In this document: positions 6,919-10,146 of the stretch, piece by piece | Layout of the letters: every line of letters begins with the position of its first letter | How positions within the stretch are numbered: position 1 is the stretch's first letter | From: an uncultured virus (IMG/VR IMGVR_UViG_3300025423_000014) | Taxonomy: Duplodnaviria; Heunggongvirae; Uroviricota; Caudoviricetes | IMG/VR virus record: IMGVR_UViG_3300025423_000014 | Length of the DNA stretch: 20,000 nucleotides | Strand: one strand, 5' to 3' | Notes under the pieces: generated by a model | The model's database searches: none | The model's input: only the letters and a program-made list of their open reading frames with translations | What the model was told of the DNA's origin: nothing | Translations under genes and position numbers: made by a program

Positions 6919-7821
6919 ATGGCTATTTCACGCGCACAACTATTGAAAGAGTTGCTTCCTGGATTGAACGCTCTGTTCGGTTTAGAGTATGCAAGATACG
7001 GCGAAGAGCACAAAGAGATTTACGAAACAGAAACCTCTGAGCGTTCTTTTGAAGAAGAAACGAAACTTTCAGGTTTCTCTGCTGCACCAGTTAAAAACGA
7101 GGGCGCCGCTCTTGCTTATGACAATGCACAGGAAGCATGGACAGCTCGTTACAACCACGAAACAATTGCTCTTGGATTCTCAATCACTGAAGAAGCGATT
7201 GAAGATAACTTGTATGACTCTTTGTCAGCACGTTATACCAAGGCTCTTGCCCGCGCTATGGCGTACACAAAACAGGTTAAAGCCGCTTCTCCTTTAAACA
7301 ATGGATACAACGCATCTATTGTTGGTGGCGACAACCAACCTTTGTTCTCCACAGCACACCCCTTAGTTAACGGCGCAACAAACGCTAACACATTCACAAC
7401 TCCTGCTGATTTGAACGAGACTTCATTAGAAGCCGCCGTTATTCAAATCGCTGGTTGGACAGATGAGCGTGGTTTGTTGATCGCTGCTAGACCTAAGAAA
7501 CTCATTGTTCCACCATCATTAATGTTCGTTGCTACTCGCCTCTTAGAGACAGAGTTGCGCGTTGGTACAAACAACAACGACATTAACGCTATTAAGAACA
7601 ATGGAGCAATTCCTGAAGGCTACACCGTAAACCACTTCTTGACATCAACCAACACATGGTTCTTGACAACTGACGTGCCAAACGGAATGAAGCACTTTGA
7701 GCGTATTGCTTTACAAAATTCAATGGACGGGGACTTCGACACCGGCAACGTTCGCTACAAATCAAGAGAGCGTTACAGCTTCGGTTGGTCTGACCCTCTT
7801 GGAATGTTTAGTTCTTACTAA
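6919..7821 (+). CDS. Major capsid protein (HK97 fold, Mu gpT-like family)
   Basis: 300 aa, RBS AAGGAG; MAISRAQLLKELLPGLNALFG, ITEEAIEDNLY, PKKLIVPP and RERYSFGWSDP are characteristic of this phage capsid family; followed by a terminator. Confidence 0.9.
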   Translation: MAISRAQLLKELLPGLNALFGLEYARYGEEHKEIYETETSERSFEEETKLSGFSAAPVKNEGAALAYDNAQEAWTARYNHETIALGFSITEEAIEDNLYDSLSARYTKALARAMAYTKQVKAASPLNNGYNASIVGGDNQPLFSTAHPLVNGATNANTFTTPADLNETSLEAAVIQIAGWTDERGLLIAARPKKLIVPPSLMFVATRLLETELRVGTNNNDINAIKNNGAIPEGYTVNHFLTSTNTWFLTTDVPNGMKHFERIALQNSMDGDFDTGNVRYKSRERYSFGWSDPLGMFSSY

Positions 7822-7845
7822 TAGGATTGGGAGTTTCCCGGTCGG

Positions 7846-7876
7846 AGGGGTCCTCAAAAGGGACCCCTTTTTATTT
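7846..7876 (+). terminator. Rho-independent terminator after the major capsid gene
   Basis: AGGGGTCC-tcaaaag-GGACCCCT followed by TTTTATTT; a second hairpin (GATTGGGA-gtt-TCCCGGTC, 7825-7843, two G-U pairs) lies just upstream. Confidence 0.85.
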
Positions 7877-7877
7877 G

Positions 7878-7886
7878 TGCTACAAT
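7878..7886 (+). promoter_or_regulatory. Candidate extended -10 promoter for the HNH gene
   Basis: TGcTACAAT directly after the terminator T-run, 27 nt upstream of ATG7914; no clear -35. Confidence 0.45.
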
Positions 7887-7913
7887 TACCTGTGTCGTAA
7901 TAAAGGAGTTAAT

Positions 7914-8498
7914 ATGGACTATCCAACAACAAGAGAAGAAGCAAAGAAAACTGGTGCTAAGTATTACTTTACGGGGCAGCCTTGCAAACACGGGCATGTA
8001 GCATTGCGCAAAACAAAGGGTTCGTGCGTAGACTGTTTAAAGGTTGAATGGGCTAAAGGTAATGAAACTCGCGCAGAATACTTTAAGCAATACAACCAAT
8101 CCGATGCAGGACAAAAAGCCAAAAAAGATTATTATGAGCGTAATAAGGAACAAGTAATTGCTAGGGCGGCTGCAAGACCTGTGGAGCAACGCAAAATGCA
8201 CAGAGAAAAATATAAGGCGCAAAACCCAGAACTTTATAAAGCGTTTGTAAGTGTTCGTAGACGCAGACATAAAAACGCAACCCCCAAATGGATTACCCCA
8301 GAACAAAAGTTGGCTATGCGCAATTTATATCTTCAAGCGCAAGCATTAACAAAAGCTACAGGTGAACGCTATGTAGTTGACCATATTATTCCTTTAATTT
8401 CGCCAGAAGTGTGTGGGTTGCATGTGCCTTGGAACTTAAGAGTTATTACACAAGAAGAAAACCTAATAAAATCAAACAAAATACCTACACAAAATTAA
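7914..8498 (+). CDS. HNH endonuclease (free-standing, homing-type) with N-terminal Cys/His zinc-binding-like domain
   Basis: C-terminal VVDHIIPL...GLHVPWNLRVITQEENLIKSN HNH motif; N-terminal YFTGQPCKHGH..R....CVDC; start reassigned to ATG7914 because of RBS AAGGAG at 7903-7908. Confidence 0.88.
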   Translation: MDYPTTREEAKKTGAKYYFTGQPCKHGHVALRKTKGSCVDCLKVEWAKGNETRAEYFKQYNQSDAGQKAKKDYYERNKEQVIARAAARPVEQRKMHREKYKAQNPELYKAFVSVRRRRHKNATPKWITPEQKLAMRNLYLQAQALTKATGERYVVDHIIPLISPEVCGLHVPWNLRVITQEENLIKSNKIPTQN

Positions 8499-8510
8499 AC
8501 TTTTACTGTA

Positions 8511-8539
8511 TTGTAAGCGTCATAAATACTGGGTAACAT
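8511..8539 (+). promoter_or_regulatory. Candidate sigma70-type promoter for the acidic ORF and tRNA-like element
   Basis: TTGTAA (8511-8516), 17 nt spacer, TAACAT (8534-8539), intergenic. Confidence 0.5.
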
Positions 8540-8581
8540 GAGAATACAGCGCCGTGCTGTACTAATTTTTTGGAGATTTAA

Positions 8582-8878
8582 ATGTTGACAGTTATTATTA
8601 AAGGCGAGACTCTTGAAGATTTAGCACAAGCAATTGAAACAGCTTTAGAGCAAGTTGAAGCTTTTTTGATTGAGCAAGACGAAGAAGTATTTGAATACGA
8701 TGACGATGGTTATTTATATGATGCAGAAAACGATGAGTTATTCTGGTTAGATTTTGACACCGGAGTTGAGTATTACTACGACGAAGAGCAAGATGCTTGG
8801 TTTGAAACAGGCGATGTTATGGATGTTGTAGTAGAAGATGACTTTGTAGAAGACGAGCAAGAAGTAGATTTCGAGTAA
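8582..8878 (+). CDS. Extremely acidic small protein (candidate DNA mimic or nuclease inhibitor)
   Basis: 98 aa, RBS GGAG at 8572-8575; hand count 37 Asp/Glu, 1 Lys, 0 Arg, 0 His; aromatic-acidic quasi-repeats GYLYDAEND, LFWLDFDTG, EYYYDEEQD. Confidence 0.75.
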   Translation: MLTVIIKGETLEDLAQAIETALEQVEAFLIEQDEEVFEYDDDGYLYDAENDELFWLDFDTGVEYYYDEEQDAWFETGDVMDVVVEDDFVEDEQEVDFE

Positions 8879-8885
8879 TATTTTT

Positions 8886-8957
8886 TGCGGGATGATCTAA
8901 CATTTAGGATGCCTCATTGATAAAGGGGCCGTCGGAGTTTAAATCTCCGTCCCGCAA
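8886..8957 (+). tRNA. Degenerate tRNA-Ile(GAT)-like cloverleaf (atypical tRNA or pseudo-tRNA)
   Basis: Acceptor TGCGGGA/TCCCGCA (7 bp) plus discriminator A; D stem ATCT/GGAT; anticodon stem CCTCA/AGGGG with loop TTGATAA; variable region CCGT; T stem CGGAG/CTCCG with loop TTTAAAT. Lacks D-loop GG, C56 and an encoded CCA. Confidence 0.6.
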
Positions 8958-9314
8958 TTTCTTAGCTTTCTTTTCTTCACGTAACTCATAGTGGTGTATT
9001 CGGTGGCAATTTGCGCATAATACGATACATTTAGCTGCCTCCTCATACGCTTTTTTCCAAGACTTATTTCGCACAAATTCATGAACTGCCCCTAACTTAT
9101 TACTGGGGTCTATATGATGAAAATCCATAGCAGCAGGGTGTGCAAAGCCACATGCCGCACACTCTAGCCCAAGTCTATGTGCTTCCCAAATACGTTTATA
9201 TTCAATACGATTACTTTTCGTTCTTTGTTTAGTTAACTCTTTGTTGTTTTGATAGTGCTTAGATGACGCTTTTTTGTTAACTTCTTTACGTTTTTGTGGG
9301 TCTTTATATGGCAT
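8904..9314 (-). CDS. HNH endonuclease (zinc-binding CxxC type), antisense to the structural operon
   Basis: ECAACG...MDFHHID...KCIVLCANCHRIHH; basic N-terminus MPYKDPQKRKE. ATG at 9314 preferred over the ORF-track start at 9326. Confidence 0.85.
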   Translation of the reverse strand: MPYKDPQKRKEVNKKASSKHYQNNKELTKQRTKSNRIEYKRIWEAHRLGLECAACGFAHPAAMDFHHIDPSNKLGAVHEFVRNKSWKKAYEEAAKCIVLCANCHRIHHYELREEKKAKKLRDGDLNSDGPFINEAS

Positions 9315-9319
9315 AACGC

Positions 9320-9347
9320 TTGACACAAGTTAAAACCGTGCTATAGT
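9320..9347 (+). promoter_or_regulatory. Strong sigma70-type promoter for the downstream structural genes
   Basis: TTGACA (9320-9325), 16 nt spacer, TATAGT (9342-9347) with extended TG at 9339-9340. Confidence 0.75.
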
Positions 9348-9356
9348 ATCACACAT

Positions 9357-9427
9357 CTGGGATTCAAACCTTGTTGCCAGCCCACCCAGGGGTCACGATG
9401 CAACGATTAACAAGGTAACTTTTGCAT
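9357..9427 (+). ncRNA. Candidate structured leader RNA with double-pseudoknot topology (possibly related to the Mu-gpT-DE motif)
   Basis: Three perfect interleaved complementary pairs: CTGGG 9357-9361 with CCCAG 9385-9389; ACCTTGTT 9368-9375 with AACAAGGT 9409-9416; ATGCAA 9398-9403 with TTGCAT 9422-9427, ending at RBS AAGGA. Confidence 0.55.
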
Positions 9428-9441
9428 AAGGATTAAAAGTC

Positions 9442-10146
9442 ATGGCACGCACCACATTCGAAGGTCCAATTCTTTCAGGCGACGTTAGATTTGGACCCCT
9501 ACGTAACGTAGGATATTCACAATTAGTTCAGAACATTGATATCAATATTGGTAACTCAACTGTTGGTTCATCTACATACGGTGGAGCATCTGGACAGTTT
9601 GTAGCTTCTAACGGTGTTCCTAACATCAACGGAACAGTTTTTGTTCCATCAGCTACAGCAACACCAACAGCACAAACAATCCCTGCTGATACAGCTACTA
9701 ACATCTATCGCGGCGCGGTATTTTATTTACCAACAGGCGCTGATTTAGACGATATCTTTTTTGATATTCAAACAGCATTTTCTGTAACTGGCGGTACAGC
9801 TTCTCTGACTTCAGTTCAGTTCTTAGCAAGCAACAACTACACAGCTGCAGCCGGTACAGCCGCTTACTTCCAAACAGCCGCGATCACATCAAACGCTGTA
9901 GGTCGTCAATCACTAGCTACTTTTACAGGCACACAAATCAGTAATCAATCTGCAACTTCTACAGACATTTATCAAGGCGGCAATCAGCCTAACTTGTCTC
10001 AAGTTGTTGTAACAATTGCATTGGTTGGTACTGCGCTATTAACTGCAACTTCTATTGCAGGACAAGTAAACGTAACGCTACGCTATACACAGCCTGATAA
10101 CAACATTGGTACATTGACAACTTACCCCTACGGTAACTTTGACTAA
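9442..10146 (+). CDS. Putative virion structural protein (minor capsid/decoration-like)
   Basis: 234 aa, RBS AAGGA, N-terminus MARTTFEGPI, beta-rich Thr/Ser/Ala/Gly composition, first structural-type gene after the capsid gene and island. Confidence 0.6.
   Translation: MARTTFEGPILSGDVRFGPLRNVGYSQLVQNIDINIGNSTVGSSTYGGASGQFVASNGVPNINGTVFVPSATATPTAQTIPADTATNIYRGAVFYLPTGADLDDIFFDIQTAFSVTGGTASLTSVQFLASNNYTAAAGTAAYFQTAAITSNAVGRQSLATFTGTQISNQSATSTDIYQGGNQPNLSQVVVTIALVGTALLTATSIAGQVNVTLRYTQPDNNIGTLTTYPYGNFD

What the first reader, a model, noticed from the sequence alone, without database searches (positions are those of the whole stretch)
8886..8957. Hidden degenerate tRNA-Ile(GAT)-like cloverleaf under the 3' end of an antisense HNH gene
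Seen: 72 nt with canonical tRNA spacing: 7-bp acceptor stem, U8, 4-bp D stem, A14, A15 with U48, A21, 7-nt anticodon loop U-U-GAU-A-A, 4-nt variable region, 5-bp T stem with G53-C61 and U54/A58, discriminator A. The G-U pairs only work on the + strand. Departures: no G18G19 together with C56 changed to U (both partners of the D/T-loop elbow contact are altered), an A31-A39 mismatch and no encoded CCA. 54 nt of it also encode the last 17 codons and stop of the minus-strand HNH. Established: GAU anticodon, A37/A38 and A73 are Ile identity elements, and phage tRNAs can offset host anticodon nucleases. Inference: either a decaying tRNA gene or a non-canonical tRNA or tRNA decoy that standard scanners may miss.
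Basis: partly seen in the sequence, partly recalled or inferred. Interest (0 to 1): 0.78.

Follow-up and report, generated by a model that had tools for sequence, protein, structure and literature searches.

The report
tRNA-shaped element replacing a phage terminator
A 72-base tRNA-like cloverleaf in an uncultured freshwater phage is real, and it sits exactly where related phages carry a simple transcription-stop hairpin, so it is probably a captured, somewhat damaged tRNA gene now serving as an RNA-end signal rather than a hidden working tRNA.

Summary
Window 8886-8957 (+) matches the Rfam tRNA model end to end at 42.5 bits (cut-off 29). It is the only ARAGORN hit in the window at 90% threshold, called tRNA-Ile(GAU). 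Default ARAGORN and larger Infernal scans miss it.

- **Setting.** It lies in a mobile "acidic protein -> <- HNH" cassette, inserted in a hot spot between the major capsid gene and the next gene.
- **What it replaces.** All eight sister loci examined (seven, 32 plus L170) carry a GC hairpin plus U-tract at this position. That hairpin read antisense encodes the HNH tail "GAEAP" in six of them. Here the cloverleaf replaces the hairpin, and its acceptor stem abuts the same U-tract.
- **HNH overlap.** It is incidental. A 5-nt insertion in a sister lineage shifts the HNH frame over an unchanged cloverleaf.
- **Copies.** The exact 72-mer occurs in nine further records in three diverged backgrounds, inside a ~196-nt identical block. 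No covariation test is therefore possible.
- **Not found.** No RNA data and no donor tRNA.

Best reading: a tRNA-derived element acting as terminator or processing signal (0.4). Rivals are a working non-canonical tRNA-Ile (0.25) and a neutral relic (0.3).

The parts
8886..8957 (+). tRNA-Ile(GAU)-like cloverleaf. Acceptor stem 8886-8892/8950-8956; D arm 8895-8910; anticodon arm 8912-8928 (GAT at 8919-8921); variable region 8929-8932; T arm 8933-8949; discriminator A at 8957.
   Evidence: RF00005 scores 42.5 bits, E = 5.2e-8, over the full model. It is the sole ARAGORN hit at -ps90. Exact copies occur in 9 other records.
8958..8980 (+). U-rich tract directly after the discriminator (TTTCTTAGCTTTCTTTTCTT). 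It is homologous to the U-tract that follows the terminator hairpin in sister cassettes. On the minus strand it encodes the lysine-rich HNH tail.
   Evidence: Alignment with L084 and the junction sequences. It has 5 T in the 8 bases that start 1 nt after the acceptor stem, read against the rule stated.
8582..8878 (+). Gene for a 98-aa very acidic protein, the upstream partner of the cassette. Its stop lies 7 nt before the cloverleaf.
   Evidence: ORF. Homologous acidic genes sit convergent with HNH in L008, L031, L040, L041, L047, L051 and L084. It has no PHROG or Pfam family.
8904..9314 (-). HNH endonuclease gene. The likely start is the ATG of MPYKDPQK; the ORF as listed runs to 9326. Its last 17 codons and stop (8904-8957) read into the cloverleaf.
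   Evidence: phrog_3106 at E = 5.2e-28 covering residues 3-125. No Pfam hit at E <= 0.01. The tail differs between lineages.
8843..9038 (.). Block that is about 100% identical among three lineages whose sequence outside it is 72-80% identical. It contains the cloverleaf, 43 nt to its left and 81 nt to its right.
   Evidence: Binned identity of L171, L172, L167 and L173 against the window.
8545..8561 (+). Small hairpin plus T-run in front of the acidic gene, conserved in sister cassettes. It is the probable left part of the cassette.
7844..7870 (+). Strong terminator-like hairpin (11 pairs) right after the major capsid gene. It is the resident terminator of the insertion hot spot.
   Evidence: Equivalent hairpins follow the capsid gene in insertion-free relatives.
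9320..9347 (+). Promoter-like site (TTGACA, 16 nt, TATAGT, with TG; 11 of 12 matches) for the downstream gene. It marks the right edge of the insertion hot spot.
   Evidence: It is conserved in relatives.

Best explanation
**Shown.**
- The 72 nt are a tRNA-derived cloverleaf of Ile(GAU) type.
- They sit inside a mobile two-gene cassette (acidic protein ->, <- HNH endonuclease). The cassette is inserted between the major-capsid terminator and the promoter of the next gene.
- In all eight sister loci of this cassette examined, the few bases between the two convergent stop codons hold a GC-rich hairpin followed by a U-tract.
- In this lineage the hairpin has been swapped for the cloverleaf. The 7-8-bp GC-rich acceptor stem now stands 1 nt from the same U-tract.
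- The overlap with the HNH reading frame is a by-product of that swap.

**Inferred.**
- The element is transcribed as the 3' end of the acidic-protein mRNA.
- There it does the job of the lost hairpin. It stops RNA polymerase and/or protects the RNA end, with acceptor stem plus U-tract acting as a forked terminator.
- Being tRNA-shaped, it may also offer an RNase P / 3'-trimming site that defines the mRNA end and releases a small tRNA-like RNA. This would resemble the t-elements of plant mitochondria.
- Decoding of Ile codons is possible but is not its main reason for being kept. The elbow nucleotides G18, G19 and C56 are lost, the anticodon stem is weakened (A31.A39), and the phage family otherwise lives without tRNAs.
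For: **tRNA origin.**
- RF00005 scores 42.5 bits over the full model, on the + strand only.
- It is the only ARAGORN -ps90 hit in the window.

**Slot of a terminator.**
- The eight loci L008, L031, L040, L041, L047, L051, L084 and L170 represent five distinct cassette types. All eight have a GC hairpin plus T-run at the acidic/HNH junction.
- In six of the eight (all but L008 and L170), the HNH tail as translated contains GAEAP, which is the antisense reading of that hairpin. L170's tail was not translated here, but L170 aligns like L084 across this junction.
- Alignment with the closest hairpin-type cassette (L084, HNH 72% aa identity) shows the following. The stop codon, 5-6 nt, then the hairpin or the cloverleaf, then TTTCTT(G/A)GC, are collinear.
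- No other + strand terminator-like site lies between 8958 and the next promoter at 9320.
- The cloverleaf persists as the minimum-energy fold within its flanks.

**Alternative alleles.**
- The L170/L084-type acidic gene occurs with the hairpin (L170, L084) and with the cloverleaf (L171, L172, L167).
- One read-set contig in run X17 bridges 8871 to 8967 with a hairpin-bearing 30-nt insert instead of the 95 nt present here.

**Not a one-off.**
- The exact 72-mer is in G001, five viral contigs and three metagenome contigs.
- These fall into three backgrounds, diverged 20-28% on one side or the other of a shared block at 8843-9038.

**Overlap incidental.**
- The HNH tail is ...LRDGDLNSDGPFINEAS* here and in L173.
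- It is ...LRNCGTEI* in L171 and L172, caused by a 5-nt insertion outside the cloverleaf, which itself is unchanged.

**Precedent for tRNA-like RNA-end signals.**
- Non-canonical cloverleaves downstream of ORFs direct RNase P/Z cleavage (PMC1920247, abstract and passages read).
Against: - No transcript data of any kind exist, so termination, processing and stability are all inferred.
- The terminator scan does not call the element, because its 'loop' is 57 nt rather than the 3-8 nt the scan requires. I found no described bacterial terminator with a cloverleaf loop; one literature search gave 2 papers, neither relevant.
- The U-tract is also HNH coding sequence, so its retention need not reflect termination.
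- The identical block extends 43 and 81 nt beyond the cloverleaf. The identity therefore shows recent shared ancestry or recombination, not selection on the RNA.
- Nearly all universal tRNA features except the elbow are intact, which fits a working tRNA just as well.
- Lack of G18G19 and C56 does not preclude function, as tRNA-Pyl shows (PMC1851642).
- RNase P normally uses the T/D-loop elbow that is altered here. This point is recalled knowledge, not tested.
Confidence: 0.4

Rival explanations
1. It is a working, non-canonical tRNA-Ile(GAU). It is cut out of the acidic-gene transcript, CCA-tailed, charged by the host IleRS and used for AUU/AUC codons. Alternatively it is kept as a spare that resists a host tRNA-cleaving defence.
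For: - 20 of 21 stem pairs form.
- U8, A14, A15-U48, A21, U33, A37, A38, G53-C61, U54-A58, A57 and A73 are all in place.
- The damage is confined to the two interacting elbow partners (G18G19 and C56) and one pair (31-39).
- Working tRNAs without these elbow nucleotides exist (tRNA-Pyl, PMC1851642).
- 269 of 343 Ile codons in the window's 28 ORFs are AUU or AUC.
- A sister cassette (L041/L042) carries a real tRNA gene scoring 55.1 bits, so tRNAs do land in this hot spot.
- Phage tRNAs that neutralise tRNA-cleaving defences are documented (PMC11464382 and PMC11555353; titles and abstract beginnings only).
Against: - It falls below ARAGORN's default threshold.
- The A31.A39 mismatch sits next to the anticodon loop.
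- The E. coli IleRS identity pairs as I recall them (C4-G69, U12-A23, C29-G41; Nureki et al. 1994, not checked in any call) read G4-C69, C12-G23 and U29.G41 here.
- It is a single tRNA in a phage group whose near-complete genomes showed none (G003, G005, G006). That search is insensitive, because it missed this element in G002.
- There is no promoter of its own.
- The D-loop/T-loop complementarity (AUUUA/UAAAU) that might replace the elbow contact arises in 3089 of 20000 shuffles of the two loops.
- No tRNA-Ile-directed defence was identified.
Confidence: 0.25
2. It is a dead tRNA gene or fragment of foreign DNA that landed at the hairpin, for example as filler during break repair at the nuclease cassette. 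It persists and spreads only by hitch-hiking with the HNH cassette, with no function of its own.
For: - Universal elbow nucleotides are lost and there is one stem mismatch.
- The element is restricted to one narrow clade. Only identical copies were found among 159 related loci, in viral contigs and among the metagenome hits.
- The identity block is wider than the element. That is expected for co-conversion around a homing-endonuclease gene. T4 SegB spreads its gene together with neighbouring tRNA genes (PMC2330249, abstract read).
- The HNH frame runs freely over it.
Against: - A drifting relic should show stem damage, yet 20 of 21 pairs are intact.
- It removed a hairpin that is kept in all eight sister loci examined, across HNH divergence down to about 50% aa identity. 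Yet the allele is found in three backgrounds and in all 4 read sets laid.
- Small phage genomes seldom keep 72 nt of junk.
- The shared block in L173 does not include most of the HNH gene, so it did not simply travel with the nuclease gene.
Confidence: 0.3
3. It is a chance cloverleaf in the antisense strand of a coding region.
For: Relaxed ARAGORN settings give many false cloverleaves: 14 at 80% and 74 at 70% of threshold in this window.
Against: - The covariance-model E-value is 5.2e-8 in a search against all 4227 families.
- Only 54 of the 72 nt are coding, and that coding tail is not conserved.
Confidence: 0.02

Closest known systems
Phage-encoded tRNA genes and tRNA pseudogenes (Rfam RF00005)
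   Same: Full cloverleaf geometry, a score above the Rfam gathering cut-off, and an Ile(GAU) anticodon loop with U33, A37 and A38.
   Different: It lacks G18G19 and C56, has an A31.A39 mismatch, and has no CCA, no promoter and no separate terminator. It is the lone copy in its genome and lies inside a nuclease cassette in the structural module rather than in a tRNA cluster.
t-elements of plant mitochondria (tRNA-like cloverleaves at mRNA ends; PMC1920247)
   Same: A non-canonical cloverleaf placed directly after an ORF, where RNase P/Z cleavage would define the mRNA 3' end and release a small stable RNA.
   Different: t-elements keep the GGTTCRANYCC T-arm motif, whereas this T loop is UUUAAAU. 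The system is bacterial or phage, and no ends have been mapped.
Rho-independent (intrinsic) terminators
   Same: A GC-rich stem followed at once by a U-tract, at the position where eight sister loci have a textbook hairpin terminator.
   Different: The 'loop' is a 57-nt three-armed structure. The consensus scan does not call it.
Free-standing homing endonucleases next to phage tRNA genes, e.g. T4 SegB (PMC2330249)
   Same: A nuclease gene abutting a tRNA-type sequence, with sharply bounded blocks of identity around it in otherwise diverged co-occurring phages. [quoted passage not shown]
   Different: The nuclease is HNH, not GIY-YIG. No tRNA cluster is present. The nuclease's target is unknown. 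In L173 the shared block excludes most of the nuclease gene.
tRNA-Pyl (PMC1851642)
   Same: A working tRNA that lacks G18G19 and T54-Psi55-C56 but keeps U54.A58 and a purine at 57, as here.
   Different: tRNA-Pyl has a dedicated synthetase, a 6-bp anticodon stem, a 5-nt D loop and a 3-nt variable loop. This element has standard stem lengths and would depend on a standard IleRS.

Membership tests
tRNA (RF00005) | Cloverleaf with 7/4/5/5-bp stems and a score at or above the gathering cut-off of 29 bits | tested here: met
   42.5 bits over model positions 1-71 of 71; only pair 31-39 is non-standard.
tRNA (RF00005) | Detected by a standard tRNA gene finder at default settings | tested here: not met
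   ARAGORN default finds 0 genes. It is found only at -ps90. tRNAscan-SE was not available.
tRNA (RF00005) | Elbow contacts G18-Psi55 and G19-C56 | tested here: not met
   The D loop is AACAUUUA and the T loop is UUUAAAU.
tRNA (RF00005) | Other universal positions: U8-A14, R15-Y48, A21, U33, R37, G53-C61, U54-A58 | tested here: met
   All are present.
tRNA (RF00005) | Expressed, end-processed, CCA-tailed and aminoacylated | not testable with these tools
   No RNA run is listed as a holder. CCA is not encoded.
tRNA (RF00005) | Stems maintained by compensatory change among homologues | tested here: inconclusive
   All 9 further copies are identical over the 72 nt, so there is no variation to test.
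tRNA-Ile(GAU) isoacceptor | Anticodon GAU with A37, A38 and discriminator A73 | tested here: met
   The loop reads UUGAUAA and position 8957 is A.
tRNA-Ile(GAU) isoacceptor | IleRS identity pairs C4-G69, U12-A23 and C29-G41 (E. coli set, recalled from Nureki et al. 1994 and not checked in a call) | tested here: not met
   The sequence has G4-C69, C12-G23 and U29.G41. The host and its IleRS are unknown, so the weight of this test is limited.
Intrinsic terminator | GC-rich stem followed within 0-2 nt by a U-rich tract | tested here: met
   The acceptor stem has 5 GC pairs of 7. TTTCTTAG starts 1 nt after it (rule as stated).
Intrinsic terminator | Simple hairpin with a short (3-8 nt) loop | tested here: not met
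   57 nt lie between the stem halves, and the scan does not list it.
Intrinsic terminator | Positional homology to a terminator in relatives | tested here: met
   All eight sister loci have a hairpin plus T-run at this junction.
Intrinsic terminator | RNA 3' ends at the U-tract | not testable with these tools
   No RNA data are available.
t-element-like processing signal | Transcript ends coincide with the cloverleaf ends; cleavage by RNase P/Z | not testable with these tools
   The analogy rests on position only (PMC1920247).
Homing-endonuclease-associated tRNA (SegB type) | The nuclease cleaves a tRNA-gene-related site and drives co-conversion of flanks | not tested
   Only a mosaic identity block (8843-9038) was seen. 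The cleavage site is unknown.
Anti-defence phage tRNA or decoy | Counteracts a tRNA-cleaving host nuclease | not testable with these tools
   The host is unknown and no such system is linked to tRNA-Ile in anything I retrieved (listings only).

The most novel reading that the evidence does not exclude
A phage has exchanged a hairpin terminator for a tRNA-shaped terminator. The acceptor stem plus U-tract stops RNA polymerase. Host tRNA-processing enzymes then trim the mRNA end and release an elbow-less tRNA-Ile mimic, which acts on its own as a decoy or spare for a tRNA-targeting defence, or as a regulator of the antisense HNH gene. The two alleles, hairpin and cloverleaf, are exchanged between co-occurring phages by recombination at the nuclease cassette.
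Probability: 0.1. Interest if true: 0.7.

Novelty: new variant of a known kind. Interest (0 to 1): 0.35.

Why it matters
- **Annotation pipelines can miss such elements.** Here is a clear tRNA-derived sequence that default ARAGORN and filtered Infernal runs drop once more than about 20 kb is searched. Surveys of phage tRNAs may therefore under-count degenerate or repurposed ones.
- **It offers a natural allele pair for experiment.** A hairpin and a cloverleaf occupy the same site in otherwise similar cassettes. A simple reporter experiment could ask whether a tRNA fold can substitute for an intrinsic terminator or act as a bacterial t-element.
- **It illustrates hot-spot dynamics.** A single intergenic hot spot in a widespread freshwater phage group collects nucleases, tRNAs and small acidic proteins.

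If the element turns out to be only a relic, the finding is ordinary.

Tried and rejected
**RNA evidence.** No RNA holder is listed among the 23 runs returned. All 4 runs laid were DNA contigs.

**Covariation.**
- A short-word blastn of the 72-mer against 159 related loci found only identical copies, in 9 loci that represent G001 and 4 viral contigs.
- A 20-mer of the T arm in viral contigs found 5 contigs, all with the exact element.
- A degenerate 33-mer in the HNH gene in metagenome contigs found 4 contigs. Three have the exact element and one (L170) has the hairpin.
- No variant copy was found, so R-scape-type testing is impossible.

**Population variants.**
- Among the 40 rows of differing letters shown for runs X17-X20, none lies in 8886-8957. 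A further 15 rows were not shown.
- With about 3% divergence this is not significant.

**Donor search.**
- blastn of the 72-mer against 50,697 phage records gave only six 18-nt matches at E = 7.
- The 1.1-kb region had no match at all.
- The T-arm 20-mer in 185,579 species genomes hit two Nostocales hairpin repeats that are not tRNAs.

**Cryptic tRNA-likes in sister cassettes.**
- An Rfam E-value scan of 10 loci (66.8 kb) found only the L041 tRNA.
- The same kind of scan missed the positive control in G002, as did the genome-search scans in G001 and G002. These negatives therefore carry little weight.
- Direct reading of the junctions is the better evidence.

**Other checks.**
- Own promoter for the element: none in the consensus scan.
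- D-loop/T-loop complementarity (AUUUA/UAAAU) as a replacement elbow: 3089 of 20000 loop shuffles do as well, so it was dropped as evidence.
- Relatives of the acidic protein by the search for related loci: only the 4 identical contigs.
- Pfam: no hit at E <= 0.01 for the acidic protein, the HNH protein, the downstream protein or the endonuclease-VII-like protein.
- Literature on cloverleaf-shaped terminators: one search returned 2 papers, neither relevant. I make no wider claim of absence.
- Earlier notes of this scan: none exist for this genome.
- A complex prediction for acidic protein plus HNH was considered and not run, because the report does not rest on their binding.

Full report
**1. 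The observation.**

Window 8886-8957 (+) reads as follows. The acceptor stem is UGCGGGA/UCCCGCA. U8 and G9 follow. The D stem is AUCU/GGAU with U13.G22, and the D loop is AACAUUUA. After G26, the anticodon stem is CCUCA/AGGGG with U29.G41 and A31.A39, and the loop is UUGAUAA. The variable region is CCGU. The T stem is CGGAG/CUCCG and the T loop is UUUAAAU. The discriminator is A, and UUU follows, so no CCA is encoded.

The Rfam tRNA model aligns to it end to end (model 1-71 of 71) at 42.5 bits against a gathering score of 29. The E-value is 5.2e-8 for a 281-nt search against all 4227 families, on the + strand only.

ARAGORN finds nothing at default. At 90% of its thresholds it reports this element and nothing else in 20 kb, as tRNA-Ile(gat) at 8885-8958. 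At that setting ARAGORN gave 15 other sub-threshold calls in 934,679 nt of related loci. The covariance model, not ARAGORN, therefore carries the significance.

The + strand folds at -26.4 kcal/mol (z = -3.17; 1 of 200 shuffles as good). The - strand folds at -20.8 kcal/mol (z = -2.02). The four-way junction remains the minimum-energy fold within 136 nt of context.

The minus-strand HNH ORF (8904-9326) ends with its stop inside the D loop, so 54 nt overlap.

A methodological warning follows. The element is lost by Infernal's filters when more sequence is searched. This happened in the whole-window gathering scan, in the 37.7-kb E-value scan of a sister contig that holds it, and in the genome search tRNA searches of G001 and G002.

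**2. Where it sits.**

The window is the structural module of a tailed phage. It encodes a large terminase, portal and major capsid protein (6919-7821), among others. It comes from freshwater metagenomes.

I collected 78 related loci through the gene downstream of the element (9442-10146, here called 'down'). In most relatives the capsid gene is followed by only about 150 nt. That stretch holds a terminator hairpin, a promoter and a conserved leader, and then 'down'.

The gap between terminator and promoter is an insertion hot spot. Different relatives carry different cargo there:
- an endonuclease-VII-like gene;
- a GNAT-like gene plus an HNH gene;
- a real tRNA-Met gene (L041/L042);
- a two-gene cassette made of a very acidic ~100-aa protein (+) and an HNH endonuclease (-), arranged convergently.

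The window has the endonuclease-VII-like gene, then the acidic/HNH cassette, with the cloverleaf between the two convergent genes.

**3. What the cloverleaf replaced.**

Eight sister loci of the cassette were examined: L008, L031, L040, L041, L047, L051, L084 and L170. In all eight, the stops of the two genes lie 0-20 nt apart. The junction is a GC-rich hairpin (mostly GGGGCTTCGGCCCC) followed by a T-run. The HNH tail as translated contains GAEAP in six of the eight (all but L008, whose hairpin differs, and L170, whose tail I did not translate; it aligns like L084 over the junction). GAEAP is simply the antisense reading of that hairpin.

The closest hairpin-type cassette is L084 (HNH 72% aa identity), which L170 matches. 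It aligns with the window on both sides. After the acidic gene's stop come 5-6 nt, then either the 14-nt hairpin or the 72-nt cloverleaf, then TTTCTT(G/A)GC and the conserved HNH coding sequence.

The cloverleaf thus occupies the terminator's slot. Its acceptor stem (5 GC pairs of 7; 8 pairs with the flanking U-A) stands 1 nt from the same U-rich tract. No other + strand terminator-like site lies between it and the promoter at 9320-9347.

One contig in run X17 bridges 8871 to 8967 with a 30-nt hairpin-bearing insert in place of the 95 nt present here. This agrees with the L084-type allele living in the same lakes, although only 23 nt match on one side.

**4. The HNH overlap is incidental.**

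PHROG profiles cover HNH residues 3-125 of 140, and relatives match up to about residue 120. The last 17 codons are the part inside the cloverleaf and have no counterpart in sister proteins.

In L171 and L172, two separate assemblies, a 5-nt insertion just outside the cloverleaf shifts the frame. The HNH protein there ends ...LRNCGTEI*, with its stop at cloverleaf positions 54-56. In the window and in L173 it ends ...LRDGDLNSDGPFINEAS*, with its stop at positions 19-21. The 72 nt are unchanged in all. Protein coding therefore does not explain the conservation of the element.

**5. Distribution and age.**

The exact 72-mer is present in G001, in five viral contigs and in three metagenome contigs. 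They fall into three backgrounds:
- **A**: the window type.
- **B** (L167, L171, L172): the acidic gene left of 8843 is only about 72% identical and resembles the L170 hairpin-type allele. Everything from 8843 to 9111 is identical apart from the 5-nt insertion.
- **C** (L173): identity is 161 of 162 from 8877 to 9038 and drops to about 80% beyond.

The block common to all three is 8843-9038.

So the hairpin and the cloverleaf are alternative alleles that recombine into different cassette backgrounds. But the identical block is wider than the element. It therefore shows recency or co-conversion, not selection on the RNA itself.

No diverged copy exists in what I could search, so stem covariation cannot be tested. 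No donor tRNA was found in phage records, viral contigs or species genomes. The phage has no other tRNA in the window or in the 37.7-kb sister contig by ARAGORN at default or 90% settings.

**6. How it most likely works.**

*Shown:* tRNA descent, position in the terminator slot, incidental overlap, and allele exchange.

*Inferred:* the hairpin is kept in every sister cassette examined, across HNH divergence down to about 50% aa identity. Its replacement keeps a GC stem directly before the U-tract. I therefore think the element is kept mainly as the 3'-end structure of the acidic-gene transcript. It would act as a forked terminator and/or a protective end. Its tRNA shape would probably also make it a substrate for RNase P and 3' trimming, as non-canonical cloverleaves (t-elements) are behind plant mitochondrial ORFs (PMC1920247, passages read). 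Confidence is 0.4.

*Working tRNA-Ile (0.25):*
- 20 of 21 pairs and nearly all universal positions are intact.
- tRNA-Pyl works without G18G19 and T-Psi-C while keeping U54.A58 and R57 (PMC1851642).
- 78% of Ile codons are AUU or AUC.
- Against this stand the A31.A39 mismatch and the absence of the E. coli IleRS identity pairs (recalled, not checked).
- Also against it are the lone-tRNA status and the weak statistical meaning of the D/T-loop complementarity.

*Neutral relic hitch-hiking with a homing cassette (0.3):*
- It fits the narrow distribution and the wide identity block.
- It resembles SegB-driven spread of neighbouring tRNA genes (PMC2330249, abstract).
- It does not explain the intact stems, or why loss of a conserved terminator is tolerated in three backgrounds.

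*Chance:* about 0.02.

**7. Comparison and novelty.**

It passes the structural tests for tRNA membership. It fails the elbow test and the default-scanner test. It passes two of three sequence tests for an intrinsic terminator and fails the simple-loop test. All functional tests are beyond these tools.

It is best filed as a new variant of a known kind: a phage tRNA-derived element, here in a terminator's place.

**8. Side finding.**

The leader of 'down' (about 9354-9441) is a strongly covarying, apparently pseudoknotted RNA shared by many freshwater phages and absent from Rfam. It may deserve its own follow-up.

Noticed in passing
window 9354-9441 (+), 5' leader of the gene at 9442-10146: A conserved structured leader starts just after the promoter (-10 at 9342-9347).
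- Four helices: 9357-9361/9385-9389, 9368-9375/9409-9416, 9381-9383/9390-9392, and 9398-9403/9422-9427. The last abuts the Shine-Dalgarno AAGGA at 9428-9432.
- In 37 distinct relatives, 99.4% of 814 cells pair and 17 of 22 pairs show changes on both sides. None of 500 shuffles reaches this, and slid controls pair at 33-45%.
- Helices 1 and 2, and 2 and 4, cross each other. This means either a double pseudoknot or alternative folds.
- RNAalifold alone finds helices 2 and 3.
- There is no Rfam match at E <= 5.
- Read-set depth jumps to about 300-1100 at 9381-9427, against about 10-40 nearby, so many phages share it.
- Note 4 in the notebook gives wrong window coordinates for helix 1. The ones here are correct.
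   Followed up: partly
L041:2995-3069 (+), same in L042: A real tRNA-Met(CAU) gene (55.1 bits) lies in the same hot spot of a 52%-GC relative. It has a C1.A72 mismatch, three G-C pairs at the foot of the anticodon stem and an encoded CCA, so it looks like an initiator. It has G instead of U at position 55. It sits within an insert of about 370 nt between the capsid terminator and the acidic-gene hairpin.
   Followed up: partly
window 8582-9326; L008, L031, L040, L041, L047, L051, L084: There is a recurrent convergent pair of a very acidic ~100-120-aa protein (motif ...Y.YD.E.N..YW.D...D.W...) and an HNH endonuclease sharing one terminator hairpin. The acidic protein has no PHROG or Pfam family. 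An untested idea is that it is an inhibitor or immunity partner of the nuclease, or a DNA mimic.
   Followed up: no
L031, L040, L041, L047, L051, L084 junctions: The terminator hairpin GGGGCTTCGGCCCC doubles as coding sequence. Read antisense, it gives the conserved HNH C-terminal motif GAEAP.
   Followed up: yes
window 7822-9441 and relatives L006-L079: The ~150-nt spacer between the capsid gene and the next gene is an insertion hot spot with varied cargo. The cargo includes an endonuclease-VII-like gene (window, L013-L015), a GNAT-like gene plus HNH on the minus strand (L028, L051, L071-L073, L076, L078), the acidic/HNH cassette, a tRNA, and longer unexamined inserts (L016, L020, L039, L045).
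   Followed up: partly
window 7827-8498 (+): The listed TTG start of the endonuclease-VII-like ORF overlaps the capsid gene's terminator hairpin (7844-7870). The real start is more likely the ATG at 7914 (MDYPTTREE...).
   Followed up: no
window 8545-8561 (+); L041, L031, L047: A small hairpin (C)AGCGCCGTGCT(G) plus T-run is conserved just upstream of the acidic gene in diverged cassettes. Its role is unknown: it may be the left border of the cassette or an attenuator.
   Followed up: no
L176:301-320, L177:301-320: The T-arm 20-mer also occurs in two Nostocales genomes (Tolypothrix, Nostoc). There it is the core of a longer hairpin next to TGAATTT-type tandem repeats. It is not a tRNA and is most likely coincidence.
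   Followed up: partly
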